A stretch of DNA of 64,000 bases from an uncultured Ignavibacteriaceae bacterium (GTDB taxonomy: Bacteria > Bacteroidota > Ignavibacteria > Ch128b), in the NCBI GenBank assembly GCA_964527925.1, contig CAZGQO010000001.1, positions 397,742 through 461,741 of the forward strand, written 5' to 3'. Both the position numbers and the translations under genes were made by a program. The notes under the pieces were generated by a model. That model was given only the letters and a program-made list of their open reading frames with translations. It was not told the origin of the DNA and made no database searches. Of the stretch, positions 35,857-52,520 are shown piece after piece (position 1 is the first letter of the stretch; each line of letters starts with the position of its first letter).

Positions 35857-35890
35857 AAAGAGGCCAGACTAAATCTGACCTCCAACATTC
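35857..35890. terminator. bidirectional rho-independent terminator between convergent genes
   Basis: AGAGGCCAGA-ctaaa-TCTGACCTC is a 9-bp stem with one mismatch and a 5-nt loop. It is preceded by an A7 run and followed by a T-rich tract (CATTCTTTTG). Confidence 0.55.
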
Positions 35891-35906
35891 TTTTGCATTA
35901 AGTGTT

Positions 35907-37247
35907 TTATTTTCTACCGCCAATGTTGAGTGGAAATACAAGAGATACTCTTGGTTCAATCCTTTTTTGTGTTTTGTAGCGTATTATATTATCATCCTTA
36001 TCATATTCGGGAGCAAATGTCCATTGATATAAAAACGAAACCAACAAATAGGTCAAAGGTTTATAACCGACCTCAGCTGTTAAAATTGATCTATCATCCA
36101 GAGTAAAAATATCTTTTTCATCTTCAATATTGATTTTATCATAGGAAGCTCTGAAAACATAACTTGCATTCTTAGGTGAAAGATCAGTTTGCAGTCTCAA
36201 AATTCCTGATTTCGAAATCTTATCATATCTTGAATAGGATCCTAAAATTTGAACGAAGTTCAATACATCAACCAGCAACTCACCATAGTAAGAATTTCCC
36301 ATTGAACGAGTTTGTTCAAGTACTTTTGCATTACTTGTTATAAACCCATTTGCTGAATCAACAATCAATCGCTTTACTTCGTAAACTTGATTGAAATATC
36401 TTGGAATGAATTGATCACCATTAAACCATCGCTCAAACTTCAGATCTATTCCAGCCAATCCAAACAAATTAAAGGCAAATCCAGCACCAATTGTCGCACC
36501 ACTTCCAAAGTCAATAATTTTTGTATAGTTTGAGTAAAGATTTACTCTAAGAATTTTTGTTTTGACGACTGGAAGTAAAGCATCAAGTCCTACTATAGAA
36601 ATGTTACCTTTGTCTTCAAGAACTTTCAATTTTTTAGTTGATGGATCAATAACAGCATTTGTAACTCCAGCATAGTCATTCAAATCAGTTGCTAAAGTTG
36701 CACCAACTTCGAGATTTCCAATGACAGGGACTTTTGCGAGATCAGTAAATTGAAGTGGTCTTGTATAACCTCTCAAACCTAATAAACCTTTTCCACTTAA
36801 ATCGCCATAAACTGACTCAAATCCAAATTTTCCAAAATCGATATCAAGCTCAACTCCAATTTTTCTGTTATCATAGGAAGCACGGTTGTTGTAGTAATAA
36901 ATTATGTTTCCCTGACCAAGAATTGCTCGATCCAATCCGCCCACTCTAATGTAAAATGGATCACCTTTATAACCATAACGCACATATTTAATCAAACTTA
37001 GATAATCAGAAAACGAATTAAATTCCTCATTTCTCAAGTTGAAATCTCTGTTGAAACGAAAATTTAAATCAAGTCCTACACCAAATTTCCCAACCGCAAT
37101 ATCAGGTGCAATGCTGAATAAATAATATGGCTCACCGTTAATATAGGTTAAACCTAATCCTCCCATAAATTGGTTTTGATTATTGAGGAAGGACTGAGTA
37201 AAAGCCTGTGCAGCAACAAATAGTATAACGAGTATACCTTTTCTCAT
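35907..37247 (-). CDS. secreted outer-membrane protein (family unassigned; last gene of the T9SS/EPS run)
   Basis: 446 aa with signal peptide MRKGILVILFVAAQAFTQ and a GGAG RBS. It is rich in alternating hydrophobic/polar Gly/Tyr/Asn β-strand-like segments. Confidence 0.5.
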   Translation of the reverse strand: MRKGILVILFVAAQAFTQSFLNNQNQFMGGLGLTYINGEPYYLFSIAPDIAVGKFGVGLDLNFRFNRDFNLRNEEFNSFSDYLSLIKYVRYGYKGDPFYIRVGGLDRAILGQGNIIYYYNNRASYDNRKIGVELDIDFGKFGFESVYGDLSGKGLLGLRGYTRPLQFTDLAKVPVIGNLEVGATLATDLNDYAGVTNAVIDPSTKKLKVLEDKGNISIVGLDALLPVVKTKILRVNLYSNYTKIIDFGSGATIGAGFAFNLFGLAGIDLKFERWFNGDQFIPRYFNQVYEVKRLIVDSANGFITSNAKVLEQTRSMGNSYYGELLVDVLNFVQILGSYSRYDKISKSGILRLQTDLSPKNASYVFRASYDKINIEDEKDIFTLDDRSILTAEVGYKPLTYLLVSFLYQWTFAPEYDKDDNIIRYKTQKRIEPRVSLVFPLNIGGRK

Positions 37248-37275
37248 TTTAACTCCTTTTTTTTTAAATTAATAA

Positions 37276-37943
37276 TTATAAGAGTTTTATGAAAAAATTA
37301 CTTAGTAAGATTGAACCTGGAAGTAAATAGTATTTGATGACTTTGAGTTAATCGGATAAAATAAATTCCACTTGAAAGATTTGAGTAATTAAAAATTATC
37401 GGCGTAGTGAATGTGATTTTACTGAAGATTTTTTTCCAAGGATGTTGTAAATTTCAAAATTCATTTCTCCCCTGAAATTATCATTTGGTCCATCGATTTC
37501 AATATTTTTTGATTTTAAATCATTCCGTAGGGAAAACTTGATTGGCGAATTATTCCCTTCATCGACAATTGATTGTTGATAAAAGATATGAATAGTGTCC
37601 GAATAAGCAAATGTCCCATCGTTATCGATTTATTTCAGTCGGTAAAAATAATTGTCTGTTGAAGGTAAGGTAGAGTCAACATAAACATAGTGCTTGGGAG
37701 AATTTGAATTTCCACTTCCGGGTACAAAATCGATTGAATTAAAAATCAAATTTCCATCACCACGTTGAATTTCGAATCCATAGTTATTGACTTCGGTTGC
37801 AGTCCCCCAACGCAATAGAATTCCATTGCTCAATGCAAAACCTTCAAAATATAATAATCAATTGGGAGAATATCATTCTTGATTTGACCATTTAGATTAA
37901 TCTGAAATATTAATCCCAGAATTAGTGTAATCATTTTATTCAT
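37276..37943 (-). pseudogene. decayed small secreted T9SS-CTD protein gene (frameshifts plus in-frame TAA)
   Basis: Its ATG overlaps the TGA of the upstream giant gene (ATGA). Frame A gives the signal peptide MNKMITLILGLIFQINLNGQ... and stops after 37 codons. A -1 shift in a T4 run restores ...FEGFALSNGILLRWGTATEVNNYGFEIQRGD...NYFYRLK. An in-frame TAA (expected CAA/Gln) is followed in frame by IDNDGTFAYSD...SPIKFSL...NFEIYNILGKK, a T9SS CTD start. The remainder of the CTD is scattered over other frames. Confidence 0.6.
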
Positions 37944-40900
37944 CTTACAATTGCCATTTTTTGAATGACTGATTTAGTTTTGTCACCTTTTTTTGCAATT
38001 ACTTTATATAAGTAAACCCCATTGCCCAATAAATCGCCATCTTCATCTCTTCCATCCCAGAAAATTTTGTTGAAGTTTGTAGTCAGATCAAAGGAGTTTA
38101 ATTTCAATTCTTTAACCATTCTTCCAGCGACAGTATAAATTTTGATTGTTAGTTCATCGGGAATTTGAGTTAAAACAAAAGTGAAATAAGTTTGATTAGA
38201 AAATGGATTCGGGAAGTTATAAACCCTCAGAATTTCCATATCAGCAGTCACTCTGAAATATTTATCGAGTACAGGCTCGGATTGAATTCGACCATAAACA
38301 TCTTTAGTAAATACTTTTAAGTTATGATCACCTTTTGAAAGTTTGACCGGATAAAGAATTGAAATTTTTCTAATTGTTGAATCGTGATCATAAACCAAAT
38401 TACTTGAATAAACTCTCGAGACATCGAGATAAATTTGAATTGCAGATGTATCAGTAACGGGGAACCATATTGGATAATTAAACTCCAATTGAATTGATGC
38501 ATCAGGTTCTACATAATCCCAATCACGAATTTCCTTGTTATTTATTTTCAAAAGAACAGATGCACTTGAAATTGAAGTTGTTGTATCCTTTTTTACATAG
38601 AAGTTCTTAATGTAAAAGTTATTGTTTTCAAATAATTCATTAATCTGATTATCAACATCAATAGATAAACGAAAACTAAATTCACCAAAGCCATCATAAA
38701 TCTTATTCATGTAAGTATGAGAAAGAGAGATAAAAGATCCCGAACTTAGATTTGAAATTAAAGTATCTATTAAAATGAAATTATAATTATCACTTTTGGT
38801 TAATTCAAGTAGAACTCTAAAACTATCAGTTATGGATTGACCAACATTGAAAATTTTAGCATAGTAGTTAATTGATTCTCCCTGAGAAATTGAATCTTTA
38901 TCCAATGAAATGGTCTGATAATTAACTGCCAGTTCTGGTGCAAGGTCGAATTCACATCCAAGTGAAAAAATTTCAGGGGTTTGTTTTGACTCGTTCGCAT
39001 ATAATTTTGCGATGAGTTTTAATGATGGATAGACTTTTGCATCAACAGATGATAGTGATATTGAATCTCTGTCAGTTAGTAAATTCCATAAAGTATCAAC
39101 TAATCCATCTTTTCTAATTCCTAATGGAAGATAAATTATTCTTGAATTTTCAGGACGCAAAGTTTCAAGCTTTATATATTTCCAGTTTCCCGAGTTTGAA
39201 ATAACAGGAAACACTACATATCCTGAATCAAAAGTCACATTTTTTGAAATCTCAATTTGTGCAACACCAGTGAACAATTTTTTAGAATCTTCAGGAACAG
39301 AACCAATTGGCGCACCTTTTTTACCAAGAATACACCAACTCTCACGATATTTAAGGCTGTCAATGTATTTGCTTCCTAACAGTTTGATAGTGTTCCTTAC
39401 ACTTGTGCTCATGATATTCTGTTGTGCATCCGCTGAAACTGTCATTGCAAGCAAGGTATTTGCAGGTAAGCTATTAATGTAATTGATTAACGAATCTCGA
39501 ACTCCAACATCTGGTACTTGAAAGTATCTTATATTGGATGGTCTTAAAGTAATCGAATCAATAATAGAAGTTGCAAGACCCCAATAGTAAGTATTAGGTA
39601 GTTGCTCATAACCATTCAATTGTATTGAACCGAATGAACCATCATGAGCACCTGCTGATTGAATTCTTAGAGTTGTTCTTTCAGAACTTAATTTCCAGCT
39701 CATTGAGACGGTATCAAAGTAAGTATTGTTATAAACAAAATCGGTTTTATTATCTAGTGGTCTATCAGTATAAATTTTATAGATAGGGAATTTTTGAATA
39801 AAAGATTTTGGCTTAGCCCAGTAAGAAGATAAATTATCAGTTCGCATTCGATAAAAATATCTTTGATTAGGTAACAAATTCGGTAGAGGAATTCTGGTAA
39901 TTAAAGAATCAAAATTTTTATAAACCCCAATGGGTTGCTCAAAATTTTCTGATGAAGATATTTCCAACAAAATTCTTTCATTATCATTTAATCGTCTAAT
40001 AAATGGATTCAATACAATTAATGTGTCCCGATATGTATTGTAATAATCAGATGCTTCAATTGAACTAAGTGAGGTTGAATTTATTACATAATCGAATTCT
40101 GCTAAATTATCATCCTCATAAATCTCATTGACTAAATTTTGCGGATCAAGTATAATTTTGATAATTCTGTTCCCAATGATATTATTCACAGGAATTGAAA
40201 TAAAAAGTGTGTCGAAATTTTTTGTAAAAGGAATATAAAATTCTGAATTGAATATAATTGAGTCACCCGAACTATCCTCTAATCTAATTTTGATCGAATC
40301 ACCAGTAACAATACCAAGATTCGAAACAATTACTCTGAATTTCACAGAATCCATTTGATCGTTAGGTTGGTCTGTTATCAAAGAAATTTTTGATTCATTT
40401 ATTGAAAGATTTGGTTTTTCTGGAATTGGAAAACCTATTATTGGATCCCCAAATAATAAATTACAATAAGTAAATACAAGATTTACATCACTTAAACCGG
40501 TCTCATTTAATTGTCTGAATTTCGAAAGTGTATGTATTCTTCCAATTGTTTTAATCGAATCTCTTAGTAATGCCTCATAGAAATATTTTGGAAATCTCAA
40601 TGATGTTGAAAGATATCCCCAACTTGAATTTCCCAGATAAGAGATTGCCTGTCCGTTCGGTGATTGACAGATAAAAATTTCTCCAAAAGCATCTACATCC
40701 GGTTCTGCAAATTTCCCTGTTGAACAACCAAAATCAGTTATAAGCGGGAATCTATCATTGTATTTATTTTTAAGATGTTCCACTTCAGAAATTGAATTAT
40801 CCCATGTCCTTGTTCCACTATGACCAATGTAAGAGATAAATAATCCTCCTTCATCAATTTTTTGTTGTACTTCTTCTAAAGTATAAAGACCAAAGTTTGT

Positions 40901-43321
40901 TGGAGGATTAAAAGTTTTATAGAAATGTGTTCCAAGTCCATATAAAGGTGAAGTTCTGACTAAATTATTTAACAAATAATTATTCGTTGCAATAATCTGT
41001 GCAACTTCATTGGGTTTATTACCATCCCCACCACTAAAGATCAAGAATAGTTTATTAAACTCGTCAAATTTTCTACTCACATAAGTCTGGTGTTTCTGAA
41101 GGTAGAAAAGAGCCTGATTATCGTTATTTGCTGGAATTCTTCCTACAAACATCTGTGGAAAATAAACATTGATTGTATCCCACATTACATACCATATATC
41201 ACTCACAGGAGAACCAAAAGCAGTAACAATATTTTTCTTTCTGGGAATTGGTGTGGGAGAAACAACATCTTTATAATCAAAATTTGCATCTCCAACAATT
41301 GTAAGGAAACTTGGTTTTGGTGGAGTCCAATTTTTATAAGCACTCATCAGAAAACTTTTAATTGCCTCAGCGGAAAGCATACCAAATGAAAATTCATCAT
41401 ATATATCTTCATCAAAAACAAGCTCAACTCTTACATTGTAATTATTTTGAATAAAATTTTTGTAAACATTCACTGAACTTTCTAAAATTTTATTTGATAT
41501 TAAAATGTAATCAGCTCCTCGAGAAGGATTCCTGAGGTTTGTAAAAGTTTTAAGCTTTTTGAAGATAGGTTGATTGGTTTTAGAAGATGTTGTTATGAAG
41601 TATTTATCACCACCTTTTATAGTATCAATAAAATAAATTGTAGATGGATTACTTCCTTGCACTTGAAAATTTACAAACTTTTTAAATTCAGGATATATCT
41701 TATAAACAATCAAGTTGTTCACATCAATAATATTATCAACTCTAATAACTCTTTCAGTTTGAAGTACTGAATCGGGAATTATTATCATCAAAGTATCATT
41801 AACAGCGATATTTCGTCTATAATAATCAACATCCACCCAGTCAATTAAAGATTGATGAAATGACGCTTCTGATGGTAATCCAAATATTCTGACTGTATTT
41901 GTTCCTTGAACAAGCTGGTTGGAACTAAATGTCTTTGAGAAGTTTACAGTTTGCTTGAAATTATAAATAATTGTGTCTTGAGATGTTGTGCTGTTTAAAC
42001 TTATTCCGTTTTTATGAGCACTCGTTCCACCACTTGATGCGTAACTAATTAAACGAGCTATAACATATACAGGTGAGTTGGTCAAAAAATCTCTGGCAGT
42101 AAATGTGACTGAAGTCGAACTAGAATTTTCAATAACCAACCATGTAAAAGTTTTATTCTCCTGCCAGAAAGGCAGCTGTACTCTCGGAACAACGGCATCG
42201 TAATACCAGAGTCTAACATCATTTTCAAGATGAATTTTTACTAAATGAGAATTGACCGTATCTGTTGAAGATGAAATATGAGTATTCACAAGATTTATTC
42301 TTTTCCCATCCGTTCCTCCCCAAGTTAACCAGACAATCGATGTATCTGTGTATCTATTTAAATATTGAATATAATCCTGCCCAATACCAACAATCTGTCT
42401 GTAATTCTGGTAAGTATAATTGCGTTCAGCATAAAATTCTATGTAATCACCAGGATTAAATTGTTCATCATCTTCACCATAAACAAAAATTAGCTGCTCT
42501 TTACCACGATTAAAAAGTTTGAAAGTTTTAGGATTGATGTTTGATAAATTTATTCCCCAACTCACTAAATCATCATAAGTTATCCTGTAAAGATTATCTG
42601 AAGCTATCGCAAGTTTTAGATATTGTTTAGAATAATCTATCCAATTCCCTGTTGTATCGTTTGAAGTAAGATGTGGATTAAAAGATTTATACTTAATTGC
42701 ATCGTCAAAATTTATAATCACATCTCTTAACATTTCATCAAATGGAGTCAATGGATTATTATTTCTGGGATATGGTTTATTTGCATCAACCATTTTTACA
42801 CTTATTATGCATGAATCAATTATAACGAGTTTTTTCTCTGAGATTGAATATCGATGTGTGTTTAATTTGATTACTGCCACATAAAAATCTCGTATCCATG
42901 TATAGCCTACTAATTCAATTTCATTTTCAGGATAGAACGATTTATAAAATAAAGATTCATCAAAATTTGTTGATGCATATCTAAGGGTCGAATCATTTTC
43001 TAACTCAACTTCAGGATTTGTTGCTAAGAGAACATTTTCTTTTTCGGTTGTGAATTTTTCTGAGATGGATATATCAATTTTTGCTTCAGGAGGAATAGCG
43101 AGGTAAAATACTCTTGATGGAAGCTTTGGCAACCCTGGTTTTGATTCGTCTAACTGATAAATGAAATCGATTAGTTTGTAACCGTCTTTATCAGATTCGA
43201 TATATGCTTCTGCTGAGTTTATAAATTTTAATACAAAACCTTCCTCATTCTTGCTGATAATTTTCGTCTGGCTAAATAAAACAGCAGGTAAGATCAACAA
43301 AATCAGTGATAAATTTCTCAT
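37940..43321 (-). CDS. peptidase C25 (gingipain/PorU-like) family protein with T9SS C-terminal sorting domain, 1793 aa
   Basis: Signal peptide MRNLSLILLILPAVLFSQ. A caspase-like His/Cys dyad sits in C25-type context and spacing (SYIGHSGTRTWDN ... LITDFGCSTGKFAEPD, about 32 residues apart, encoded near 40700-40830). The C-terminal 90 aa (NFPNPFSNQTYFTF...KIYTVAGRMV...GVYLYKV...KMAIVR) are a canonical T9SS CTD. Confidence 0.75.
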   Translation of the reverse strand: MRNLSLILLILPAVLFSQTKIISKNEEGFVLKFINSAEAYIESDKDGYKLIDFIYQLDESKPGLPKLPSRVFYLAIPPEAKIDISISEKFTTEKENVLLATNPEVELENDSTLRYASTNFDESLFYKSFYPENEIELVGYTWIRDFYVAVIKLNTHRYSISEKKLVIIDSCIISVKMVDANKPYPRNNNPLTPFDEMLRDVIINFDDAIKYKSFNPHLTSNDTTGNWIDYSKQYLKLAIASDNLYRITYDDLVSWGINLSNINPKTFKLFNRGKEQLIFVYGEDDEQFNPGDYIEFYAERNYTYQNYRQIVGIGQDYIQYLNRYTDTSIVWLTWGGTDGKRINLVNTHISSSTDTVNSHLVKIHLENDVRLWYYDAVVPRVQLPFWQENKTFTWLVIENSSSTSVTFTARDFLTNSPVYVIARLISYASSGGTSAHKNGISLNSTTSQDTIIYNFKQTVNFSKTFSSNQLVQGTNTVRIFGLPSEASFHQSLIDWVDVDYYRRNIAVNDTLMIIIPDSVLQTERVIRVDNIIDVNNLIVYKIYPEFKKFVNFQVQGSNPSTIYFIDTIKGGDKYFITTSSKTNQPIFKKLKTFTNLRNPSRGADYILISNKILESSVNVYKNFIQNNYNVRVELVFDEDIYDEFSFGMLSAEAIKSFLMSAYKNWTPPKPSFLTIVGDANFDYKDVVSPTPIPRKKNIVTAFGSPVSDIWYVMWDTINVYFPQMFVGRIPANNDNQALFYLQKHQTYVSRKFDEFNKLFLIFSGGDGNKPNEVAQIIATNNYLLNNLVRTSPLYGLGTHFYKTFNPPTNFGLYTLEEVQQKIDEGGLFISYIGHSGTRTWDNSISEVEHLKNKYNDRFPLITDFGCSTGKFAEPDVDAFGEIFICQSPNGQAISYLGNSSWGYLSTSLRFPKYFYEALLRDSIKTIGRIHTLSKFRQLNETGLSDVNLVFTYCNLLFGDPIIGFPIPEKPNLSINESKISLITDQPNDQMDSVKFRVIVSNLGIVTGDSIKIRLEDSSGDSIIFNSEFYIPFTKNFDTLFISIPVNNIIGNRIIKIILDPQNLVNEIYEDDNLAEFDYVINSTSLSSIEASDYYNTYRDTLIVLNPFIRRLNDNERILLEISSSENFEQPIGVYKNFDSLITRIPLPNLLPNQRYFYRMRTDNLSSYWAKPKSFIQKFPIYKIYTDRPLDNKTDFVYNNTYFDTVSMSWKLSSERTTLRIQSAGAHDGSFGSIQLNGYEQLPNTYYWGLATSIIDSITLRPSNIRYFQVPDVGVRDSLINYINSLPANTLLAMTVSADAQQNIMSTSVRNTIKLLGSKYIDSLKYRESWCILGKKGAPIGSVPEDSKKLFTGVAQIEISKNVTFDSGYVVFPVISNSGNWKYIKLETLRPENSRIIYLPLGIRKDGLVDTLWNLLTDRDSISLSSVDAKVYPSLKLIAKLYANESKQTPEIFSLGCEFDLAPELAVNYQTISLDKDSISQGESINYYAKIFNVGQSITDSFRVLLELTKSDNYNFILIDTLISNLSSGSFISLSHTYMNKIYDGFGEFSFRLSIDVDNQINELFENNNFYIKNFYVKKDTTTSISSASVLLKINNKEIRDWDYVEPDASIQLEFNYPIWFPVTDTSAIQIYLDVSRVYSSNLVYDHDSTIRKISILYPVKLSKGDHNLKVFTKDVYGRIQSEPVLDKYFRVTADMEILRVYNFPNPFSNQTYFTFVLTQIPDELTIKIYTVAGRMVKELKLNSFDLTTNFNKIFWDGRDEDGDLLGNGVYLYKVIAKKGDKTKSVIQKMAIVR

Positions 43322-43351
43322 TCACTCCTCCTGAAATCTGATATATTAAGA

Positions 43352-44059: not shown

Positions 44060-44083
44060 AGATTTAATGATAGGGAATTTTAT

Positions 44084-45160: not shown

Positions 45161-46302
45161 TTCAATACCAATGAATTATATAGATTTTCAAAAAAACCAA
45201 TACATTTTTCTTTTGTGAATGTTGTTTCCATTGCTTTTTTACCATTTAATCCAAGTTTCATTCTTAATTCGGGATCATTTTTAAGTTTAATAATCATTCT
45301 TACACAGGTTTCTAAATCACCAAAGGGATAGACATATCCACAATTTACTCCTTCAACAATTTCTTTTATTCCACCAACATCACTTGAAACAATTGGAACA
45401 CCAGCAGACATTGCTTCCCAGATTGTAAGAGGTAAACCCTCCCGCTCAGAGGTCATCAACAGCACATCAAGTAAAGAAATTAATTGGAATGGATTTTCAA
45501 CATATCCTAAAAAGGTCACATTTTTTTCAAGTTCTAATGATATGGCTAAATTTCTTATTTCATTCAACAATACACCATCACCCATGAAAATAAAATGTAT
45601 ATCTTCAACTTTTTTATTAATGATTGACTTCAAAACCATCAACGCAAAATCAACTCTTTTTTCCGAATCTATTCTACCAATCATTCCGACAAGAAAATTT
45701 TTTTTTCTAATTTCCTTTACTGAATAAAGAATTTCTTGATTCAAAATATTAAGAGCTGTATTAACGATTGAATTATAATAAAAATCTGATTTCTTGAATA
45801 ATTTAGAATCATTGAACAAAATCTTAAGACTGCTTTTCGAAGGAGCTATAGCTATTTCGCATCCTTTAAGGAAATAAATAAGAGTATGAAAAGCGTAAAG
45901 TATAATTCTTTGAGGTTTGTTATAGTATTCGTTAAAAATAAAAACTCCATGATAATTATAAATATGATTCTTCCTTAAGATAATACTGAGCATTCCCAAT
46001 AAAATATATGCTTTCGTAGAATGCGAATGTAAAATATCCACTCTTTCCTTTTTGATAATTCGATAAATTTCAATTAACGATTTAAATGGCAGTTTATTAC
46101 CAAGACTTTTTAATTCATAAACACTCACATTCGATTTGTTTAATTTCTTCTTAATTTCTTCCCCACCTTCATAAATTAGAATGTGTGAATATTTTTCTTG
46201 ATCCAGATTATCAAAAATCATTTTTAAATGAGTGAAACGCCCATCTGCAAGAGCAGTTATATGTTCAGCTACATGACAAATTTTTATTTTTCTTTCATAC
46301 AT
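45157..46302 (-). CDS. glycosyltransferase family 4
   Basis: 381 aa with EGLPLTIWEAMSAGVPIVSSDVGGIKEIVEGVNCGYVYPFGD, the canonical GT4 EX7E region. It overlaps its neighbours by 4 and 19 nt. Confidence 0.75.
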   Translation of the reverse strand: MYERKIKICHVAEHITALADGRFTHLKMIFDNLDQEKYSHILIYEGGEEIKKKLNKSNVSVYELKSLGNKLPFKSLIEIYRIIKKERVDILHSHSTKAYILLGMLSIILRKNHIYNYHGVFIFNEYYNKPQRIILYAFHTLIYFLKGCEIAIAPSKSSLKILFNDSKLFKKSDFYYNSIVNTALNILNQEILYSVKEIRKKNFLVGMIGRIDSEKRVDFALMVLKSIINKKVEDIHFIFMGDGVLLNEIRNLAISLELEKNVTFLGYVENPFQLISLLDVLLMTSEREGLPLTIWEAMSAGVPIVSSDVGGIKEIVEGVNCGYVYPFGDLETCVRMIIKLKNDPELRMKLGLNGKKAMETTFTKEKCIGFFENLYNSLVLK

Positions 46303-47390
46303 TTTTCGAAAACTTCTAAATAATTTTTCACAACTTTTTGCCAGCTAAACTGTTTTGCTAAAGCTTTAGAATTAGAAGAAATCTTAATTAGATCAGCTTG
46401 ATTGTTTTTAATAAAATCAAAAATCTCATTAAAACTTTGATGATCTTCTGGATTATAAATAAATCCACTCTTACAGTGCCTGATTACTTCAGCTATTCCT
46501 ACATTTCTGTGAACCATAGGTATCAAACCTTGACTCATACATTCCAGACAGAAAATTGAAAAAGAGTCAAATGCTGGACCTTTGATTACAAAATGTTTAT
46601 CCTTCAAAAATTCTCTTAAACTTTCACCTGACATTAATTTGATTTTATAAATGTAGAAATTTTCTTTCAAACTAATTGAACCTTCTTCTATTCCTATAAT
46701 AAACAGTTCAATTGGTAAATCAGAAATTTTATTTAATAATTTTATTAATTCATCCAGACCTCTTTCAATATTTGTGGATGTACCATTATAAAAAACGAAT
46801 CTAAATTGGACTGTGAATTTTTTTTGATCTGCTTCAGTAAAAAAAATTTCATCGAGTCCATTGTAAATCACCTCAGAACTTTTGACTAAATCCTGATAGT
46901 TTTTCCTGAATTCATTAAGTAATAAGTTAGATACAAAAACATTTGCATTACTTTTTTTGATCGCTAATTTTTCAAGCATTAAAACTCTTGCTTTTCGTAA
47001 ATAGTTGGATTTATGAGTTCCAGATATGATCTCATTTTTAAGCACACCATGATAGGTCGTCACAATTTTTAATCTGAGAAAATTTTTTAATAGTAAAAAA
47101 AGAATTTGAAACACTTCAAGATTGACGATGTGAATAATATCTGGTTGTTCCTTCAATAAATAATGAATAATTCTAATCAGACCTAACTTCAATACATATG
47201 GCTCTTTAGAAATTATTTTTTTCCCAAATAATCTTTGAACTAACGAAACATCAGAATTCTTAAAAAAATAATCTATAAATACAACATTCTTTCCTTCTTG
47301 ATTCAAATGAAACAAAAGCCTTTTCCCGAATTTTTCGGGACCAGATAAAATTTCTGACTCATTATATCTTCCCATTAAAACTATTGTCAT
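46284..47390 (-). CDS. glycosyltransferase (GT-B fold, GT4-like)
   Basis: 368 aa with the C-terminal motif CLECMSQGLIPMVHRNVGIAEVIRHCKSGFIYNPED. Confidence 0.6.
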   Translation of the reverse strand: MTIVLMGRYNESEILSGPEKFGKRLLFHLNQEGKNVVFIDYFFKNSDVSLVQRLFGKKIISKEPYVLKLGLIRIIHYLLKEQPDIIHIVNLEVFQILFLLLKNFLRLKIVTTYHGVLKNEIISGTHKSNYLRKARVLMLEKLAIKKSNANVFVSNLLLNEFRKNYQDLVKSSEVIYNGLDEIFFTEADQKKFTVQFRFVFYNGTSTNIERGLDELIKLLNKISDLPIELFIIGIEEGSISLKENFYIYKIKLMSGESLREFLKDKHFVIKGPAFDSFSIFCLECMSQGLIPMVHRNVGIAEVIRHCKSGFIYNPEDHQSFNEIFDFIKNNQADLIKISSNSKALAKQFSWQKVVKNYLEVFEKCMKEK

Positions 47391-47391
47391 T

Positions 47392-48645
47392 TCAAACCAA
47401 ATTGTTTGCTTTTGTGAATCTTATCAAATAGAAAACTTGAAGAATTAAAATTAAGATTGAACTCAAAATAAGAGATATAACTGCACCAGAAATTCCAAAA
47501 TATTTTATAAAAATCAGATTAAAAATAAAGTAAAGCAATACAGCGAGAAAAGTTATAAACATATTAATTTTTTCCAGTCTAAATGAGTTCAACAATACTC
47601 CATTCAAACCAATTAAAAATATAATTGGAATAGCAAATGATAATTGTTTTAAGTAAAAAACTGAGTCGAGAAATTTAATTCCAAATAAAACTTTCACAAG
47701 AAATTCTCCGAATATTTCAAAAAAAACAACAGTAAAAATTCCAAGACTAAAAAGCAAAAGAAAATCGACTTTTAATTGTGAAATAAATTTCTTTTGATCA
47801 AAATCAGCATACATCTTTGAATAAAAATTGAAAGATTGTAAATAAAAAATTGATGATAAAACTGATGTCTGTCTGAACAAACTCGAAGCAACGGAATAAA
47901 CAGCAACATCATGATTCCCCCTGAGAGATTGGAGAATTAAAATATCAATTCTCTCAAAAGTCATTACAAAAATTACAGACAGTGCAAAAGGGAAGGAAAC
48001 TTTAACCAGATTCTTAATAACTACCCAGTTGAACGTTTTAAATAAATCAATAAGTTTTATCTCATTTATTTTACTTACTAAATATAGAAATTGAAATACC
48101 AGAATAAGAAACAAAAAAGATAAACTAATATGAACTTCTACTCTGGTTATTGTAAAGTAAATTAAAAGTAAAAACAATATTAGTCGAGTGTAAAAAATTG
48201 AATAAAAGCTGATGCTGAATTTGTTTTTACCGTTCAAATAAAAAATGAGTATCTGCAAAATTGAATAGAAAAAATTTATTAGAGATATTAAAACAATGAT
48301 TAAACTGATATATATATCACCTTTGAAATAAACCAACGGTACAGGTAAGAAAAAAATCATTAACAATAATTTGAATGAAATTGTATTAGTAAGTTGATTT
48401 ATTCTAAGTTTTCCTGAAGCGGCTTCCCTTTGAATATAAATCGGAAATCCAAAATCAATAAATGCAGCTAAAATATTTGTAAATGCAAAAGCGGATACTA
48501 TTAATCCGTAAAGTTCCTTGTCAACATATCTCGCAATTGAAATATAGAATGCAAAAAAAGTTAATCGTTCAAAAATATTATAAAGAAAAATATACTTACC
48601 ATTTGCCCAGATTGATTTTAATTCACCTCTGAATTCCGAAAACAT
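47392..48645 (-). CDS. polysaccharide biosynthesis protein / oligosaccharide flippase (Wzx-like)
   Basis: 417 aa, extremely hydrophobic with about 12 predicted TM segments, positioned next to the glycosyltransferases. Confidence 0.6.
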   Translation of the reverse strand: MFSEFRGELKSIWANGKYIFLYNIFERLTFFAFYISIARYVDKELYGLIVSAFAFTNILAAFIDFGFPIYIQREAASGKLRINQLTNTISFKLLLMIFFLPVPLVYFKGDIYISLIIVLISLINFFYSILQILIFYLNGKNKFSISFYSIFYTRLILFLLLIYFTITRVEVHISLSFLFLILVFQFLYLVSKINEIKLIDLFKTFNWVVIKNLVKVSFPFALSVIFVMTFERIDILILQSLRGNHDVAVYSVASSLFRQTSVLSSIFYLQSFNFYSKMYADFDQKKFISQLKVDFLLLFSLGIFTVVFFEIFGEFLVKVLFGIKFLDSVFYLKQLSFAIPIIFLIGLNGVLLNSFRLEKINMFITFLAVLLYFIFNLIFIKYFGISGAVISLILSSILILILQVFYLIRFTKANNLV

Positions 48646-48652
48646 ACAAAGT

Positions 48653-49948
48653 CTATCTTCTTGCTAGCCAGAGTTCTGGATTTTGTTTTTCTCTTTCTTT
48701 CCAGATTTCTAGATGTAACATCTCGCCACTTAAACTTTCACCGCTAAGCGCAATTATATCTCCTCTTTTTAATAATTGTCCTTCAGTAACAAGTACATCA
48801 GAGAGGTAAGCATAAACTGTTCTATAATCTTCCGAATGATTGAGAATAATGATATTTCCATAACCTGGTAACCAGTGTACAATTGAAACTACTCCATCAG
48901 CAATTGCCTTAACAGGTGAACCAAATGGAGCTGCTATATCAACACCAAAATTGAGTGTGACTGTATTCAGAACCGGATTTTTCTGTTTTCCAAACCGATT
49001 TACTATTCTGCCATTAACGGGCCATGGTAGTCTTCCTTTCATCTTTGAAAACGAAGAAAATTTTGGAAGAGCGTTAAATAAATCTTCACGATTCTCAGAA
49101 AGAGTTGTTGTTTTATTATATGAATTTTTGGTTTGTTGCTTGGTTTCGTTTTTTCTTACTGATTTTTGTTGTTGAAGTCGCTTTTGTTCTTCCAGAGCTT
49201 TTTGTTTTGCAATGAGTTCTTCTTTTCGTTTTTGTTCAATTAGCTTCTCAATCAGGCTTGTAATTTGTTTTTCTGATTGTTTTTTTCTCTCGAGATCTTC
49301 AAGTAAGGCTTCTTTATTATTTCTGAGGGAACTAACTACATTTCTTTTCTCTGAAATTTTTTCTCTTAAAGTAGTCTCGTCTTTTGATTTTTGAGTTCTA
49401 AGAGTTTCTTTTTCATTTAGAACCTGAAGTAAATTTTGTTTTTCTCTTTCAACTTCTAAAGCCTTAGCTTTAATTAATTCAAGTCGACGTTTTCTTTCCT
49501 CAGAGAATTTTTGAAAATATTTATATCTAAGTAATGCTTGATTTATTGATTCACTGCTTAATAATAATTCAAGCGGATTTCTTTTTCCATATTTATAAAG
49601 GTTAATGACATGCTGTTCATATTCAGATTGAAGTGATTTGAATTCTCGTTCTGCTGTCTTTAAATCCATTTCTCGGAGTTTAATCTCTTCGTTTAGTCTT
49701 TTCTCCTCCTGAGTCAATTGATTAATCAAATTCCGAATCAGTTGAAGTTGTTTATCATAATCATCAATAAACTCTAAATTTTTTTTCTCGGCTCTTTGGA
49801 TTTCTTTTAATTTTTTATCTAGTAGTTGGATTTCATTTCGAATCTTTTCAAGTTCTTTCTTTCGAGATTGTATAGAATCTCCTCGTTGTGCCAGCAGAAT
49901 AACAAACATTAAAAAAATTAGAGAAGCTATAATTTTTATTTTTACCAT
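48653..49948 (-). CDS. M23 family metallopeptidase with N-terminal coiled-coil (EnvC-like murein hydrolase activator)
   Basis: 431 aa with a signal peptide and a roughly 250-aa Glu/Lys/Gln-rich coiled-coil. The C-terminal LytM/M23 domain carries GVDIAAPFGSPVKAIADGVV and NIIILNHSEDYRTVYAYL. Confidence 0.75.
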   Translation of the reverse strand: MVKIKIIASLIFLMFVILLAQRGDSIQSRKKELEKIRNEIQLLDKKLKEIQRAEKKNLEFIDDYDKQLQLIRNLINQLTQEEKRLNEEIKLREMDLKTAEREFKSLQSEYEQHVINLYKYGKRNPLELLLSSESINQALLRYKYFQKFSEERKRRLELIKAKALEVEREKQNLLQVLNEKETLRTQKSKDETTLREKISEKRNVVSSLRNNKEALLEDLERKKQSEKQITSLIEKLIEQKRKEELIAKQKALEEQKRLQQQKSVRKNETKQQTKNSYNKTTTLSENREDLFNALPKFSSFSKMKGRLPWPVNGRIVNRFGKQKNPVLNTVTLNFGVDIAAPFGSPVKAIADGVVSIVHWLPGYGNIIILNHSEDYRTVYAYLSDVLVTEGQLLKRGDIIALSGESLSGEMLHLEIWKEREKQNPELWLARR

Positions 49949-50712
49949 CTCTTAATTACCACATCTTCTGGTACCTCTGGATATTGAATAACAGTCTCCT
50001 TATTGATATAAATTTCTGAAAAATTTATTTCAAGCCAATTATCTTTCTTTAAATCAATAAATCTAATTTTACTTGGAAATCGAATCCCATTTTTATCCTT
50101 AATGAAACCATTTAATGTCATATTAAGAGTAAATTCACTCCCTTTGATCATTTTAATTTCCGATATCATCCTTGAAGATTTATCAAAATAAAAGTCGATC
50201 CTCCTATCATTTTTAATTTTGGAAAACCTATAAAAATTTCCACTATCAATAACAGGTGAACTCGAATCAGAGTTAATCTGATCAGGATTGATATAACCAA
50301 GTAATAATGAGTAAATCAAATTTTTGTTTATTTCATCCGCAAAATATTTTCTCAATTTGCTTGAACTAAAACTTGCATAGATCAATTGGTTATTAAAATT
50401 GTTATGAATCATTATTGAATCATCGTTCAAATAAAGATTGCCAACATATATACCCAATGGACCCCAGAGATCAATACGTGCCCGGTTGTCTTTAAGAGTT
50501 ATCATTTCGAATTCTAACTTGACTGGAAAATTTTTGGTCGATAAAGAAATAGTTCCCGATGCAGAAATTGAATTGATACTTTCAAAATTTGATTTATACT
50601 CGTTAAGTAATTCATCGAAACTTATTGACTCATAAGTAACTTTTTTCGAAGTGCTGCATGAAATCAATAACGAAAGAGCAAAAATGACTGATAAATTAGA
50701 ACGAATATTCAT
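49942..50712 (-). CDS. outer-membrane lipoprotein, DUF4292/LolB-like
   Basis: 256 aa with lipobox LLISC and a size and context (between a TPR protein and the EnvC-like M23 peptidase) matching what I believe is a conserved Bacteroidota TPR/DUF4292/M23 trio. Confidence 0.5.
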   Translation of the reverse strand: MNIRSNLSVIFALSLLISCSTSKKVTYESISFDELLNEYKSNFESINSISASGTISLSTKNFPVKLEFEMITLKDNRARIDLWGPLGIYVGNLYLNDDSIMIHNNFNNQLIYASFSSSKLRKYFADEINKNLIYSLLLGYINPDQINSDSSSPVIDSGNFYRFSKIKNDRRIDFYFDKSSRMISEIKMIKGSEFTLNMTLNGFIKDKNGIRFPSKIRFIDLKKDNWLEINFSEIYINKETVIQYPEVPEDVVIKRW

Positions 50713-52520
50713 TTAATTTCATTCAATTTTTGTTTGATAGATTCATTTTCTGGATTGAGTTTTAATGCCAGTTCATAATACTCTTTTGCATCTTCGACCT
50801 TGTTCAATTTTATTGAAACATCACCCATATGTTCGAGTATTTCAGCACTCGGTGAACCTTGATCAATTGCAAGTTTGATATACTTAGCAGCGGTTTCATA
50901 ATCACCCATTTGAAAGTAAATCCAGCCGAGTGTATCAAGGTAAGAATCAACCAGCGAATCCTTTTCCAGTGATTTTTTTGAAAGCTCTAAAGCTCTTTCG
51001 AGATTATATTTCCGCTCTGCAAGGCTATAGGCATAATTATTCATTATCATTGAATCATCAGGATATACCTTCAATGCTTCTTCATACATCGAATCGGATT
51101 CAATGTAATAACCAGCATCTTTTAATAACATAGGCAAATTAACCAGTGCAGCGTGATTTTTACTATCAATCTTAAGCGCATTTCGACAATATTCAATTGC
51201 TTCGTTATAATTTTTAATTTTACCAAGGGTATAACCCATCAATACTAACAAATCAGGATTTTCAGGACTAAGTTCGATAGCTTTCGAAAAATATTTTGCC
51301 GCTTGATTGTAATCAGAAATCTGTAAATAAGAAAAACCAAGAGTTGAGTTGAAATCAACATCGTTTTCATAGTAAGAAATCAAAGGCGTTAATAATCGAA
51401 TTGAATTTTCATAATTATTATTTCTATAAATTCCATAAGCAATATTCTTAAAATTTTCTCTTGAGACTTTATCACCAAGAACAAAATTCATCAACTTATC
51501 TTCTATATTCTGATTATCAATCAATTTTAAAGCAAGAAGAAAACTTGATATTAGTGTATCGTTATTTTTGAATCTCTTCTCGAACCTTTCAATTAATGAT
51601 TTACGACTTACCGAATCTTTATAAGATTTTTCAAAAATCATATCATACATACCAATACTAAATAAATTACTGTCTGATAATGATATTTCAGAAAAAGCTT
51701 CATCTATGTGAAAAAATGCATCTGTGTATTTTTTTTCATCCAATAAAAGCTGAGCTATTAAAAAATTAAGAAGCGAATTTTTTGGATATTTCTCATACCA
51801 ATCAAATGCAACTTTCTTTGCTTCTTCATTTTTATTTCTAATGTAATAGAGAGTTAAAAGTGTTGCTTTCCAATTAAAATTACGCGGTTCGATATAGATT
51901 AATGACTTTAAAACTTTTTCACATTTATCATAATCTGATTGTGAGATGTAATACTCATAAAGTTCCCCCAAAGCTCGAGTATTTTCTGGATCTATTTCAA
52001 GAATTTTTTCATAAATTTTTTCTGTTGTATCAGTATCTTCCGAAGAATATAAACTTGCAAGAACAAAATAAGCATCGATATAAGTTGAATCGTTCTTTAT
52101 TATTCGATGTAACAAATTAGCAGCTTTTCTAAATTCATAAATCTGATAATAAAATTGACTTGCACCAAACAAATAATATGGTTGAAGAACCGAATCAGGA
52201 TAAGAAAGTAATTTTTCAAAATACTTCTGAGCAAGTTCAAATTTTTCAATCTTCAATAGTTCATTTCCAAGTGCAAAATATATGGCAGGATTTTCTTCAA
52301 ATATTAAAGCTTCTTGAAATTCAAGAATTGCTTTTTCTGATCTTTCTTGAAGCGAATAAGTAAGTCCATCAATAAAATGTCTCTTGGCTTCAATGTTTTT
52401 TATGGATATTAAAGCATCTTTATAGTACTTGTTGTCCTTATAAGTTTTTTCTTGAGAAACCAAGAAACCATTAATTGAGACGAATATTATTAGAAAAAAT
52501 ATTAAGTTTTTCATGTACAA
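50709..52520 (-). CDS. tetratricopeptide repeat protein
   Basis: 603 aa with a signal peptide followed by more than 10 TPR-like repeats (the AxxYxxLG..Y..A....A pattern recurs). Confidence 0.75.
   Translation of the reverse strand: MYMKNLIFFLIIFVSINGFLVSQEKTYKDNKYYKDALISIKNIEAKRHFIDGLTYSLQERSEKAILEFQEALIFEENPAIYFALGNELLKIEKFELAQKYFEKLLSYPDSVLQPYYLFGASQFYYQIYEFRKAANLLHRIIKNDSTYIDAYFVLASLYSSEDTDTTEKIYEKILEIDPENTRALGELYEYYISQSDYDKCEKVLKSLIYIEPRNFNWKATLLTLYYIRNKNEEAKKVAFDWYEKYPKNSLLNFLIAQLLLDEKKYTDAFFHIDEAFSEISLSDSNLFSIGMYDMIFEKSYKDSVSRKSLIERFEKRFKNNDTLISSFLLALKLIDNQNIEDKLMNFVLGDKVSRENFKNIAYGIYRNNNYENSIRLLTPLISYYENDVDFNSTLGFSYLQISDYNQAAKYFSKAIELSPENPDLLVLMGYTLGKIKNYNEAIEYCRNALKIDSKNHAALVNLPMLLKDAGYYIESDSMYEEALKVYPDDSMIMNNYAYSLAERKYNLERALELSKKSLEKDSLVDSYLDTLGWIYFQMGDYETAAKYIKLAIDQGSPSAEILEHMGDVSIKLNKVEDAKEYYELALKLNPENESIKQKLNEIK

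What the first reader, a model, noticed from the sequence alone, without database searches (positions are those of the whole stretch)
35857..52520. A roughly 16.6 kb single-strand envelope supercluster links polysaccharide genes, a C25/PorU-like T9SS peptidase and an OMP
Eleven minus-strand genes are separated by gaps of -19 to +30 nt. The run ends at a convergent terminator hairpin (35857-35890) and is preceded by the divergent promoter region at 52521-52645. In order of transcription the genes are: a TPR protein, a DUF4292-like lipoprotein, an EnvC-like M23 peptidase, a Wzx-like flippase, three GT4-type glycosyltransferases, a WecB/TagA transferase, a 1793-aa peptidase-C25 protein with a T9SS CTD, a decayed small CTD gene, and a secreted OMP.

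In Porphyromonas, the C25-family sortase PorU attaches T9SS cargo to an anionic LPS glycan whose synthesis needs glycosyltransferases and a flippase, but those genes are scattered. Here a PorU-like C25 protein appears to be co-transcribed with a complete glycan-assembly set. That suggests a dedicated T9SS cargo-anchoring glycan locus, an arrangement I have not seen described. The alternative is that the C25 protein is simply a cargo protease placed next to an EPS locus.
Basis: partly seen in the sequence, partly recalled or inferred. Interest (0 to 1): 0.65.

Follow-up and report, generated by a model that had tools for sequence, protein, structure and literature searches.

The report
PorU-like sortase gene tied to glycan genes
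In this Ignavibacteria genome, and in every relative I could examine, a large enzyme resembling the sortase that anchors secreted proteins to the cell surface lies beside sugar-chain-building genes, which suggests the enzyme and its sugar anchor are made together, though no experiment has tested this.

Summary
The gene run is real: ten intact minus-strand genes plus one decayed gene, closed by a strong terminator.

The 1793-aa C25 protein is of the PorU sortase type, not a gingipain-like protease. Its best profile matches are NCBIfam PorU2 and PorU, both below their cut-offs. Its only PDB peptidase sequence match is P. gingivalis PorU. An AlphaFold model of residues 221-1072 matches PorU over about 945 alignment columns, but gingipains over the catalytic half only. 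His834 and Cys866 are invariant in 120 of 120 relatives.

The 16.6 kb is not one unit. The conserved part is a WecG/TagA transferase next to the C25 gene, in 11 of 11 loci. GT4b-GT4c-WecG-C25 is kept in all nine Ignavibacteria orthologue loci with an upstream flank. The TPR, LolB-like and EnvC-like genes and the 446-aa outer-membrane protein are variable neighbours. That protein is a roughly 20-stranded barrel and is not PorV-like.

The glycan set is incomplete: the 40 longest ORFs of the window, all scanned, include no initiating transferase, ligase or polymerase.

A second, more PorU-like paralogue family in Ignavibacteria sits beside the missing gene classes. I could not show that both families occur in one genome.

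This is a new variant of a known kind.

The parts
52515..52645 (.). Divergent intergenic region upstream of the run
   Evidence: ORF coordinates and sequence. The promoter scan is uninformative.
50709..52514 (-). TPR protein. A variable neighbour, not part of the conserved core.
   Evidence: Pfam TPR families. Present upstream only in the window and L003; the L009 flank begins inside the DUF4292 gene.
49942..50712 (-). DUF4292 / LolB1-like lipoprotein. A variable neighbour.
   Evidence: PF14125 at E 2e-14. LolB1_Flavo scores 48.7 bits against a cut-off of 50.
48653..49948 (-). EnvC-like M23 peptidase. A variable neighbour.
   Evidence: PF01551. EnvC NF008644 scores 118.8 bits, below its cut-off of 270.
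47392..48645 (-). Wzx-like flippase (Polysacc_synt)
   Evidence: PF01943 and PF13440. A Polysacc_synt gene sits in the cluster in the window, L004, L005, L009, L094 and L097, but not in L002 or L006.
46284..47390 (-). GT4 glycosyltransferase a, in the variable distal part of the glycan set
   Evidence: Pfam. An orthologue is present in L002, L005 and L006. Other genes (Glf, GT2, other GT4s or polytopic membrane proteins) take its place in L003, L004 and L009.
45157..46302 (-). GT4 glycosyltransferase b, part of the conserved core
   Evidence: Pfam. Orthologues are present in all nine Ignavibacteria loci with an upstream flank.
44084..45160 (-). GT4 glycosyltransferase c, part of the conserved core
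   Evidence: Pfam. Conserved in all nine loci.
43352..44059 (-). WecG/TagA/CpsF (GT26) transferase acting on an undecaprenyl-PP-linked acceptor. It is the invariant neighbour of the C25 gene.
   Evidence: PF03808 at E 1e-29. Closest solved relative is TagA 7MPK, E 3e-14. It lies next to the C25 gene in 11 of 11 loci.
37940..43321 (-). 1793-aa PorU/PorU2-type C25 peptidase. Domains in order: signal peptide, Propeptide_C25-like N-terminus, PorU-like module, ILEI domain, CARDB, T9SS type A CTD.
40106..42661 (-). PorU-like module (residues 221-1072), which includes the C25 catalytic domain (residues 605-961)
   Evidence: NF052324 covers residues 221-1072. AlphaFold pLDDT is 90.7. The top Foldseek hit is PorU 6ZA2.
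40820..40822 (-). Codon for the catalytic His834
   Evidence: Aligns with the HGG motif of PorU. Invariant in 120 of 120 relatives. Codon checked.
40724..40726 (-). Codon for the catalytic Cys866
   Evidence: Aligns with the catalytic Cys region of PorU. Invariant in 120 of 120 relatives. Codon checked.
39311..39571 (-). ILEI/FAM3-like domain (residues 1251-1337), a candidate glycan-binding module
   Evidence: PF15711 at E 1e-14. Matches FAM3B 2YOP at E 5e-5. Among the most conserved segments, at 0.71.
37964..38215 (-). T9SS type A C-terminal sorting domain
   Evidence: TIGR04183 scores 33.1 bits against a cut-off of 23. The last 150 residues align with the C-terminus of PorU itself, E 9e-7.
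37298..37943 (-). Decayed small T9SS cargo gene (signal peptide, small domain, CTD)
   Evidence: Two frameshifts and one in-frame TAA. Intact copies of about 213 aa in L008 and L009.
35907..37247 (-). Conserved Ignavibacteria outer-membrane beta-barrel of about 20 strands. Not PorV-like, and a variable neighbour.
   Evidence: AlphaFold pLDDT 83.6. Only generic porin matches, TM 0.3-0.4. No PorV, PorV2 or Pfam match. It follows the C25 gene only in the window, L005, L008 and L009.
35859..35883 (-). Intrinsic terminator closing the run
   Evidence: An 11-bp stem with 5 G-C pairs, followed by a T-run.

Best explanation
**What it is.** The functional unit is not the whole 16.6 kb. It is a conserved Ignavibacteria module made of [Wzx], the GT4 genes, WecG/TagA and a PorU-type C25 enzyme. 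Housekeeping envelope genes flank it by lineage-specific accident: TPR, LolB-like and EnvC-like upstream, and a decayed small cargo gene plus a conserved barrel protein downstream.

**Proposed mechanism.** Shown steps and inferred steps are marked.
1. The C25 protein is exported by Sec and then by the T9SS, using its type A CTD. The signal peptide and CTD are shown; their use is inferred.
2. It sits on the cell surface like PorU. There it uses its intact His834/Cys866 dyad to remove the CTD of T9SS cargo and to join the new C-terminus to a sugar. The dyad and the PorU fold are shown; the activity is inferred.
3. The acceptor is a short lipid-linked oligosaccharide. A primer made by a transferase encoded elsewhere is extended on undecaprenyl-PP by the adjacent WecG/TagA-type enzyme and the GT4 enzymes, then flipped by the adjacent Wzx. 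The enzyme families are shown; the pathway is inferred. It parallels the single-copy A-linking saccharide of P. gingivalis.
4. The conserved ILEI/FAM3-like domain, which this family shares with NCBIfam PorU2 proteins, binds or presents that glycan. This is inferred.

The protein is best described as a PorU2-like paralogue of the T9SS sortase whose glycan-acceptor genes are physically linked to it.
For: - **Profile matches.** PorU2 NF052324 scores 370 bits and PorU NF033707 258 bits, over residues 221-1072. No gingipain model is matched.
- **PDB by sequence.** The only C25 match is PorU 6ZA2. It covers the catalytic region and the last 150 residues.
- **Fold.** PorU gives E 3.6e-34, 945 alignment columns and TMq 0.51. 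RgpB and Kgp give about 1e-17, about 490-520 columns and TMq 0.33.
- **Catalytic residues.** His834 and Cys866 are invariant in 120 of 120 relatives. The catalytic, ILEI and CTD segments are the most conserved.
- **Family.** The protein is conserved across Ignavibacteria at 43-88% identity, and nearly all listed relatives are about 1795 aa long.
- **Synteny.** GT4b-GT4c-WecG-C25 is kept in L002-L006, L008, L009 and L094, with at least five different outer contexts. WecG is still adjacent in the most divergent member, L097, where it is inverted, and in a sister clade, L098, where WecG precedes two tandem C25-ILEI genes.
- **WecG identity.** Its closest solved relative is TagA, which acts on Und-PP-GlcNAc.
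- **Known precedent.** P. gingivalis cargo is amide-linked by PorU to a linking sugar at the end of a single-copy pentasaccharide. That linker is built by an initiator plus three glycosyltransferases and needs the flippase PorS (PMC7468200, PMC13086638).
Against: - No experiment or transcript data bear on any step.
- The protein scores below the curated NCBIfam cut-offs for PorU (420) and PorU2 (450).
- The locus has no initiating transferase, no ligase and no genes that would give a sugar a free amine.
- No PorV, PorV2 or PorZ partner lies beside it. Bona fide Bacteroidota PorU2 genes pair with PorV2 and have no glycosyltransferase neighbours.
- A second Ignavibacteria family scores higher on the PorU model (288-296 bits) and could be the real cargo sortase.
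- The N-terminal Propeptide_C25-like region (E 6e-10) is a gingipain-like feature.
Confidence: 0.5

Rival explanations
1. The C25 protein is itself a T9SS cargo: a surface or secreted cysteine protease. It is anchored to, or binds through its ILEI domain, the polysaccharide made by the neighbouring genes. It does not act as a sortase for other proteins.
For: It has a type A CTD and a Propeptide_C25-like N-terminus, as gingipains do. It falls below the PorU and PorU2 cut-offs. No PorV-like partner is adjacent. A more PorU-like paralogue family exists in the class.
Against: Sequence and fold resemblance to PorU extends over about 850 residues and several domains. Gingipains match the catalytic half only. 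PorU itself carries a CTD that is not removed (PMC11285876). The near-constant length and the single conserved genomic position across the class are unusual for a cargo protease family.
Confidence: 0.2
2. The adjacency has no functional meaning. A general LPS, O-antigen or EPS locus and a C25 gene stayed neighbours through shared descent. The tight spacing simply reflects a compact genome.
For: All full orthologous loci come from one class. The distal part of the glycan cluster varies as ordinary O-antigen loci do (Glf, GT2, PMT_2, polytopic proteins). Bacteroidota PorU2 genes have no glycosyltransferase neighbours.
Against: The outer flanks have been reshuffled at least five ways while WecG-C25 stayed together, at C25 identities down to 37% and about 25%. 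The adjacency survives an inversion (L097) and a tandem duplication (L098). The second PorU-like family is independently embedded in glycan genes: 38 of 47 and 38 of 40 loci.
Confidence: 0.15
3. It is a PorU2-type CTD signal peptidase or sortase serving a subset of cargo, but the neighbouring glycan is not its acceptor. The glycan genes could instead glycosylate the enzyme or its cargo, or build an unrelated surface layer.
For: PorU-type fold and catalytic dyad. The locus has no amine-sugar genes.
Against: It does not explain why WecG in particular stays next to the gene in 11 of 11 loci, nor the strong conservation of the ILEI domain.
Confidence: 0.15

Closest known systems
PorU, the T9SS C-terminal signal peptidase and sortase of Porphyromonas gingivalis (PDB 6ZA2; NCBIfam NF033707)
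   Same: Multi-domain fold over about 850 residues. C25 His/Cys dyad at aligned positions. A C-terminal T9SS CTD that aligns with the CTD of PorU itself.
   Different: It is 1793 aa against 1158 aa. It has an extra Propeptide_C25-like N-terminus and about 630 extra residues carrying ILEI and CARDB domains. It scores 258 bits against a cut-off of 420. No porV gene is adjacent. Its gene lies inside a glycan locus, whereas the A-LPS genes of P. gingivalis lie elsewhere (PMC7468200).
NCBIfam 'putative T9SS sortase PorU2' (NF052324), with its partner PorV2 (NF052325). These are curated but uncharacterised, and I found no paper on them.
   Same: It is the best-scoring family, at 370 bits. Orthologues score 367-419 bits. 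The ILEI domain is shared and the total length is similar. In the NJ tree, family A groups with the PorU2-type clades.
   Different: It is below the cut-off of 450. Bona fide members score 633-895 bits, lack the 220-aa N-terminal extension, are preceded by a PorV2 barrel and have no glycosyltransferase neighbours. Here there is no PorV2, and a WecG/GT4 set takes that position.
A-LPS / A-linking-saccharide pathway of P. gingivalis (WbaP, GtfC, GtfF, VimF, PorS/Wzx, PorR/WbpE, Vim proteins)
   Same: The same gene classes for a short, unpolymerised, lipid-linked oligosaccharide: several glycosyltransferases plus a dedicated Wzx flippase. That oligosaccharide is the acceptor for PorU transpeptidation (PMC7468200, PMC13086638).
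   Different: In P. gingivalis these genes do not lie next to porU. Here the initiator and the amine-sugar genes are missing from the locus. WecG (GT26) has no described counterpart in the P. gingivalis set. No orthology was shown, only equivalence of gene class.
Gingipains RgpB and Kgp (C25 cargo proteases)
   Same: The C25 catalytic fold (Foldseek E about 1e-17). A Propeptide_C25-like N-terminal region. A T9SS CTD.
   Different: No sequence match at E<=0.01. Only the catalytic half superposes. There are no haemagglutinin or adhesin domains.

Membership tests
PorU (T9SS sortase, NF033707) | Scores at or above the curated NCBIfam cut-off (420 bits) | tested here: not met
   258.2 bits, covering model positions 4-744 of 1095
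PorU (T9SS sortase, NF033707) | C25 catalytic His/Cys dyad present and conserved | tested here: met
   His834 and Cys866 align with the PorU motifs and are invariant in 120 of 120 relatives
PorU (T9SS sortase, NF033707) | Overall multi-domain fold like PorU rather than like a gingipain | tested here: met
   Foldseek: 6ZA2 at E 3.6e-34 over 945 columns; RgpB and Kgp at about 1e-17 over about 500 columns
PorU (T9SS sortase, NF033707) | Carries a T9SS CTD that is kept after secretion | tested here: inconclusive
   The CTD is present (TIGR04183 at 33 bits) and aligns best with the CTD of PorU itself. Whether it is kept cannot be read from sequence.
PorU (T9SS sortase, NF033707) | Works with a PorV barrel, whose gene is often adjacent | tested here: not met
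   The adjacent 446-aa barrel has no PorV, PorQ or PorV2 match and about 20 strands. A weak PorV-superfamily OMP lies 2.1 kb upstream, at 55.9 bits against a cut-off of 90.
PorU (T9SS sortase, NF033707) | Removes cargo CTDs and transfers cargo to a glycan | not testable with these tools
   Needs genetics and mass spectrometry
PorU2 (NF052324, putative) | Scores at or above the curated cut-off (450 bits) | tested here: not met
   370.3 bits; it is the best-scoring family. Orthologues score 367-419 bits. True members score 633-895 bits.
PorU2 (NF052324, putative) | Paired with a PorV2 (NF052325) gene | tested here: not met
   PorV2 directly precedes PorU2 in L013 and L014, at 486-500 bits. No such gene appears in the window locus or in any family A locus.
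PorU2 (NF052324, putative) | ILEI domain downstream of the catalytic module | tested here: met
   PF15711 at residues 1251-1337. It is also present in P0160, P0162 and P0172.
Gingipain-type C25 cargo protease | Detectable sequence similarity to gingipain catalytic domains | tested here: not met
   No RgpB or Kgp chain at E<=0.01 in the PDB sequence search
Gingipain-type C25 cargo protease | N-terminal C25 prodomain | tested here: met
   Propeptide_C25 PF08126 at E 6e-10, residues 59-210
Complete Wzx/Wzy-type glycan assembly locus | Flippase and glycosyltransferases | tested here: met
   Polysacc_synt, three GT4 genes and WecG
Complete Wzx/Wzy-type glycan assembly locus | Initiating phosphoglycosyl transferase (Bac_transf or WecA type) | tested here: not met
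   None among the 40 longest ORFs of the 64 kb window, all scanned with Pfam or carrying a Pfam annotation
Complete Wzx/Wzy-type glycan assembly locus | Polymerase or ligase (Wzy/WaaL) | tested here: not met
   None in the window (same calls). Some relatives carry extra polytopic proteins in the cluster.
A-LPS linking-sugar pathway (Wbp/Vim) | Genes that make a sugar with a free amine for amide linkage | tested here: not met
   No aminotransferase, deacetylase or aminoacyl-transferase in the locus. A DegT aminotransferase does occur beside the family B paralogue in other genomes.

The most novel reading that the evidence does not exclude
Ignavibacteria may organise T9SS surface anchoring as two sortase-centred glycan loci that complement each other.

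- **The family B (PorU-leaning) locus.** It carries a PglF-like dehydratase, a DegT aminotransferase, a small PglC-like initiating transferase and, in at least one case, a WaaL/Wzy_C protein. No acetyltransferase gene was seen in the one fully annotated locus (L093). This set could make an undecaprenyl-PP-linked amino sugar that keeps a free amine.
- **The family A (PorU2-like) locus in this window.** It carries the WecG/TagA and GT4 extension enzymes and the flippase.
- **The built-in ILEI domain of family A.** It would take over the glycan-presenting job that the separate protein PorZ does in P. gingivalis.

If this is right, the gene neighbourhood alone spells out a complete sortase-plus-acceptor pathway outside the classical Bacteroidota models.
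Probability: 0.15. Interest if true: 0.75.

Novelty: new variant of a known kind. Interest (0 to 1): 0.5.

Why it matters
In the model organisms, the glycan that T9SS cargo is anchored to took two decades to define, and its genes do not lie next to porU.

Here a PorU-type enzyme is physically and evolutionarily tied to a small set of lipid-linked-glycan genes. That gives a compact, directly testable candidate for a sortase-plus-acceptor unit in a different lineage.

It also gives a first genomic context for the uncharacterised PorU2 branch and its ILEI domain. It shows as well that both PorU-like families of Ignavibacteria live inside glycan loci.

The practical uses are in annotation and in experiments. 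These proteins are currently labelled 'C25 family cysteine peptidase' or 'hypothetical protein'. The result also points to which genes to delete in culturable Ignavibacteria.

Tried and rejected
1. **Literature.** No paper mentions PorU2. The 36 text hits were artefacts, and the one T9SS paper among them was not opened. No paper combines PorU with Ignavibacteria. Eight papers mention T9SS with Ignavibacteria, none about this locus.

2. **The 446-aa OMP as a PorV or PorV2 analogue. Rejected.** It has no family match, no PDB sequence match, about 20 strands, and only generic porin fold matches.

3. **Whether families A and B occur in one genome. Several routes, none conclusive.**
   - Accession numbers of cluster members did not overlap.
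   - Contig lengths were not shared across the hit tables.
   - P0045 (family A) and P0147 (family B) come from the same JGI sample. Their contigs have GC3 of about 0.13 and 0.27, so they belong to different organisms.
   - No family B protein named for Rosettibacter firmus, and none matching the MAG contigs that carry family A, appeared. This is only weak evidence that some genomes have family A alone.

4. **Tetranucleotide correlation.** It was too unspecific to bin the contigs.

5. **Promoter scan.** It was uninformative in this AT-rich DNA: 92 sites found against 102 expected.

7. **RNA genes.** Rfam and tRNA scans of the window found nothing.

8. **Genome-collection scan.** The single-protein scan returned only 7 loci. 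The synteny sample is therefore 11 loci, not hundreds.

Full report
**Observation**

The ORF listing gives ten intact minus-strand ORFs between 35907 and 52520. Gaps in transcription order are -4, -7, +7, +1, -19, -4, +24, +30 and -4 nt.

Pfam and NCBIfam confirm each assignment:
- TPR protein.
- DUF4292, which scores 48.7 bits on LolB1_Flavo against a cut-off of 50.
- M23 peptidase, with EnvC as best match.
- Polysacc_synt (Wzx-like).
- Three GT4 proteins.
- WecG/TagA/CpsF.
- A 1793-aa Peptidase_C25 protein with Propeptide_C25, ILEI, CARDB and Por_Secre_tail matches.
- A 446-aa protein with no Pfam match.

The stretch between the C25 gene and the last gene encodes a small signal-peptide-plus-CTD protein. 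It reads through only with two frameshifts and one in-frame TAA. Relatives L008 and L009 have an intact gene of about 213 aa at that spot, so it is a pseudogene here.

A terminator with an 11-bp stem and a T-run lies at 35883-35859 on the minus strand. It is the only strong one on that strand in the run. The TPR gene probably starts at the ATG at 52514. The sigma-70 promoter scan is uninformative: 92 sites found against 102 expected.

**What the C25 protein is**

NCBIfam places it with the T9SS sortases. 'Putative sortase PorU2' (NF052324) scores 370 bits over residues 221-1072. PorU (NF033707) scores 258 bits. Both are below their cut-offs of 450 and 420.

Against all PDB sequences, the only peptidase matched is P. 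gingivalis PorU (6ZA2, E 2e-12). The match covers the catalytic region and the last 150 residues. No gingipain appears at E<=0.01. The ILEI region matches FAM3B.

An AlphaFold model of residues 221-1072 has pLDDT 90.7. It matches PorU at E 3.6e-34 over 945 alignment columns, with TMq 0.51. RgpB and Kgp match at about 1e-17 to 1e-18 over about 490-520 columns, the catalytic half only.

His834 and Cys866 align with the catalytic motifs of PorU and are invariant in 120 of 120 relatives. The catalytic, ILEI and CTD segments are the most conserved parts, at 0.71 mean consensus frequency.

**The protein family and its relatives**

The protein belongs to a family I call family A. Nearly all members are about 1795 aa long, and the family is found across Ignavibacteria MAGs and in Rosettibacter firmus at 43-88% identity.

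A second Ignavibacteria family, family B, is about 1900-1940 aa. It scores higher on PorU (288-296 bits) than on PorU2 (231-249 bits).

Bona fide PorU2 proteins score 633-895 bits and are 1620-1715 aa. Where a name is given, it is Bacteroidota (P0170, Crocinitomicaceae). They lack the 220-aa N-terminal extension. In both loci examined they are directly preceded by a PorV2 barrel (NF052325, 486-500 bits) and have no glycosyltransferase neighbours.

A neighbour-joining tree of the shared module groups family A with the PorU2-type clades. It places family B apart, nearer canonical PorU. I found no paper on PorU2 or on PorU in Ignavibacteria.

**Synteny**

This is the main new result.
- In eight orthologous loci besides the window's own (L002-L006, L008, L009, L094; C25 identity to the window protein 42-60%), the order GT4b-GT4c-WecG-C25 is kept.
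- The outer context differs among them. Upstream it is TPR-DUF4292-M23, an OPT transporter, EF-G or an AMP-binding enzyme. Downstream it is OMP-HAD, PqqD/M20, an EVE-domain gene or gyrA.
- Two loci have insertions inside the module. L008 has a PMT_2 protein and a polytopic protein between WecG and C25. L094 has an opposite-strand GT2 there.
- In the most divergent family A member (L097, 37% identity over the module), WecG and one GT4 gene are inverted but still abut the C25 gene.
- In a sister clade (L098), WecG precedes two tandem C25-ILEI genes.

So WecG lies next to a C25-ILEI gene in 11 of 11 loci.

The Wzx gene is present in most loci but not all. The TPR, DUF4292, M23 genes and the OMP are each present in only a minority.

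The 16.6 kb 'supercluster' is thus three juxtaposed modules, and only the middle one is conserved. Co-transcription remains plausible here, given the tiny gaps and the absence of internal terminators. It is untested, and L097 shows it is not a conserved requirement.

**The glycan genes**

The closest solved relative of the WecG-like protein is TagA, the Und-PP-GlcNAc ManNAc transferase (7MPK, E 3e-14).

The locus has a flippase and four glycosyltransferases. Among the 40 longest ORFs of the window, all scanned with Pfam or carrying a Pfam annotation, there is no initiating phosphoglycosyl transferase, no Wzy or WaaL, and no sugar-modifying genes. It is therefore not a complete assembly set.

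Its content fits a short, unpolymerised oligosaccharide built on a primer made elsewhere.

This parallels current knowledge of P. gingivalis. There, cargo is amide-linked to a linking sugar (PMC7468200). That sugar ends a single-copy pentasaccharide built on undecaprenyl-PP by an initiator (WbaP) plus GtfC, GtfF and VimF, and then flipped (PMC13086638). The resemblance is one of gene classes, not of demonstrated orthology.

**Family B context**

In 77 metagenome loci, family B has a small Bac_transf (PglC-like) gene upstream on the same strand in 38 of 47 loci with enough flank. It has GlmS downstream in 38 of 40. DegT aminotransferase usually accompanies them. L093 also has a Polysacc_synt_2 dehydratase, a Wzy_C/WaaL-family protein and a GT2.

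These are exactly the gene classes missing from the window locus. That makes a two-locus pathway attractive, but I could not show that the two families share a genome:
- The one shared sample contains two different organisms, with GC3 of 0.13 and 0.27.
- No family B protein named for Rosettibacter firmus, and none matching the MAG contigs that carry family A, turned up. Some genomes may therefore have family A only.

**The 446-aa OMP**

It is well conserved, at 48-91% identity among the 120 best of 700 hits, all unannotated. AlphaFold models a barrel of about 20 strands with pLDDT 83.6. The model has only generic porin matches, at TM 0.3-0.4. There is no PorV, PorV2 or PDB sequence match. It follows the C25 gene in four of the loci only. 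I do not count it as part of the system.

**Most likely mechanism**

Confidence is about 0.5. The proposal is a PorU2-like T9SS sortase-type transpeptidase whose lipid-linked glycan acceptor is extended and flipped by the adjacent WecG, GT4 and Wzx genes, with the ILEI domain as a candidate glycan-binding module.
- Shown: the families, the fold, the catalytic dyad, the CTD and the conserved adjacency.
- Inferred: surface location, CTD cleavage, transpeptidation, the identity of the acceptor and the role of the ILEI domain. The idea that ILEI-fold domains bind carbohydrate rests on my own knowledge of the POMGnT1 stem domain. The role of PorZ as A-LPS carrier is likewise from memory.

The rivals are a glycan-bound cargo protease (0.2), meaningless inherited adjacency (0.15), and a sortase whose acceptor is not the neighbouring glycan (0.15).

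**Novelty and score**

The components are all known kinds, and the idea extends established PorU/A-LPS biology. What appears undescribed is the conserved physical coupling of a PorU-type gene to glycan-assembly genes. It holds in two paralogous families. It also gives the uncharacterised PorU2/ILEI branch its first genomic context.

I rate this a new variant of a known kind, with interest 0.5. It is useful and testable. It is purely computational, and the question of which paralogue is the working sortase is unresolved.

Noticed in passing
L010-L012, L015-L093 (other genomes and metagenomes): A second Ignavibacteria PorU-like family, about 1900-1940 aa, scores higher on PorU than on PorU2. It lies in a conserved context: [GT2, Wzy_C], DegT, small Bac_transf, [Polysacc_synt_2 or an unknown 551-aa protein], the C25 gene, then GlmS. 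Bac_transf is upstream in 38 of 47 loci and GlmS downstream in 38 of 40.
   Followed up: partly
L013 7920-14004; L014 7858-14112: Bona fide NCBIfam PorU2 genes are directly preceded by a PorV2 barrel gene (486-500 bits). This forms a two-gene unit with no glycosyltransferase neighbours. Only one PorU2-type protein carries a taxon name (P0170, Crocinitomicaceae). No publication on this pair was found.
   Followed up: partly
L098 1328-11980: A WecG gene is followed by two tandem C25-ILEI genes (1614 and 1659 aa), from a clade between family A and PorU2. The taxon is unknown.
   Followed up: no
window 54621-57924 (minus strand): A 473-aa FadL/TodX-like outer-membrane protein has weak PorV/PorQ-family (55.9 bits, cut-off 90) and BamG (64 bits, cut-off 250) matches. 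Two ORFs with no family match (171 and 457 aa) lie immediately upstream of it on the minus strand, overlapping by 4 nt each. This lies 2.1 kb upstream of the run.
   Followed up: partly
window 37298-37943; L008 about 9450-10090; L009 about 15390-16030: The small gene between the C25 gene and the OMP is a minimal T9SS cargo: signal peptide, one small domain with an 'RLKQIDNDG' motif, and a CTD. It is intact in relatives and decayed here.
   Followed up: partly
window 28330-30306 (minus strand): A 658-aa Peptidase_S8 protein has a Por_Secre_tail domain, so at least one more T9SS cargo is encoded in the window. A signal peptidase I gene and lepA lie next to it.
   Followed up: no
L008 (JAWABG010000024.1): A 15-kb contig carrying a family A orthologue and typical Ignavibacteria neighbours is deposited under 'Candidatus Woesearchaeota archaeon'. 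It is probably a mis-binned contig in an archaeal MAG.
   Followed up: no
window 52646-53575 (plus strand): The divergently transcribed 309-aa gene has only weak ATP-grasp (RimK/LysX-like) matches and no Pfam hit at 1e-6.
   Followed up: no
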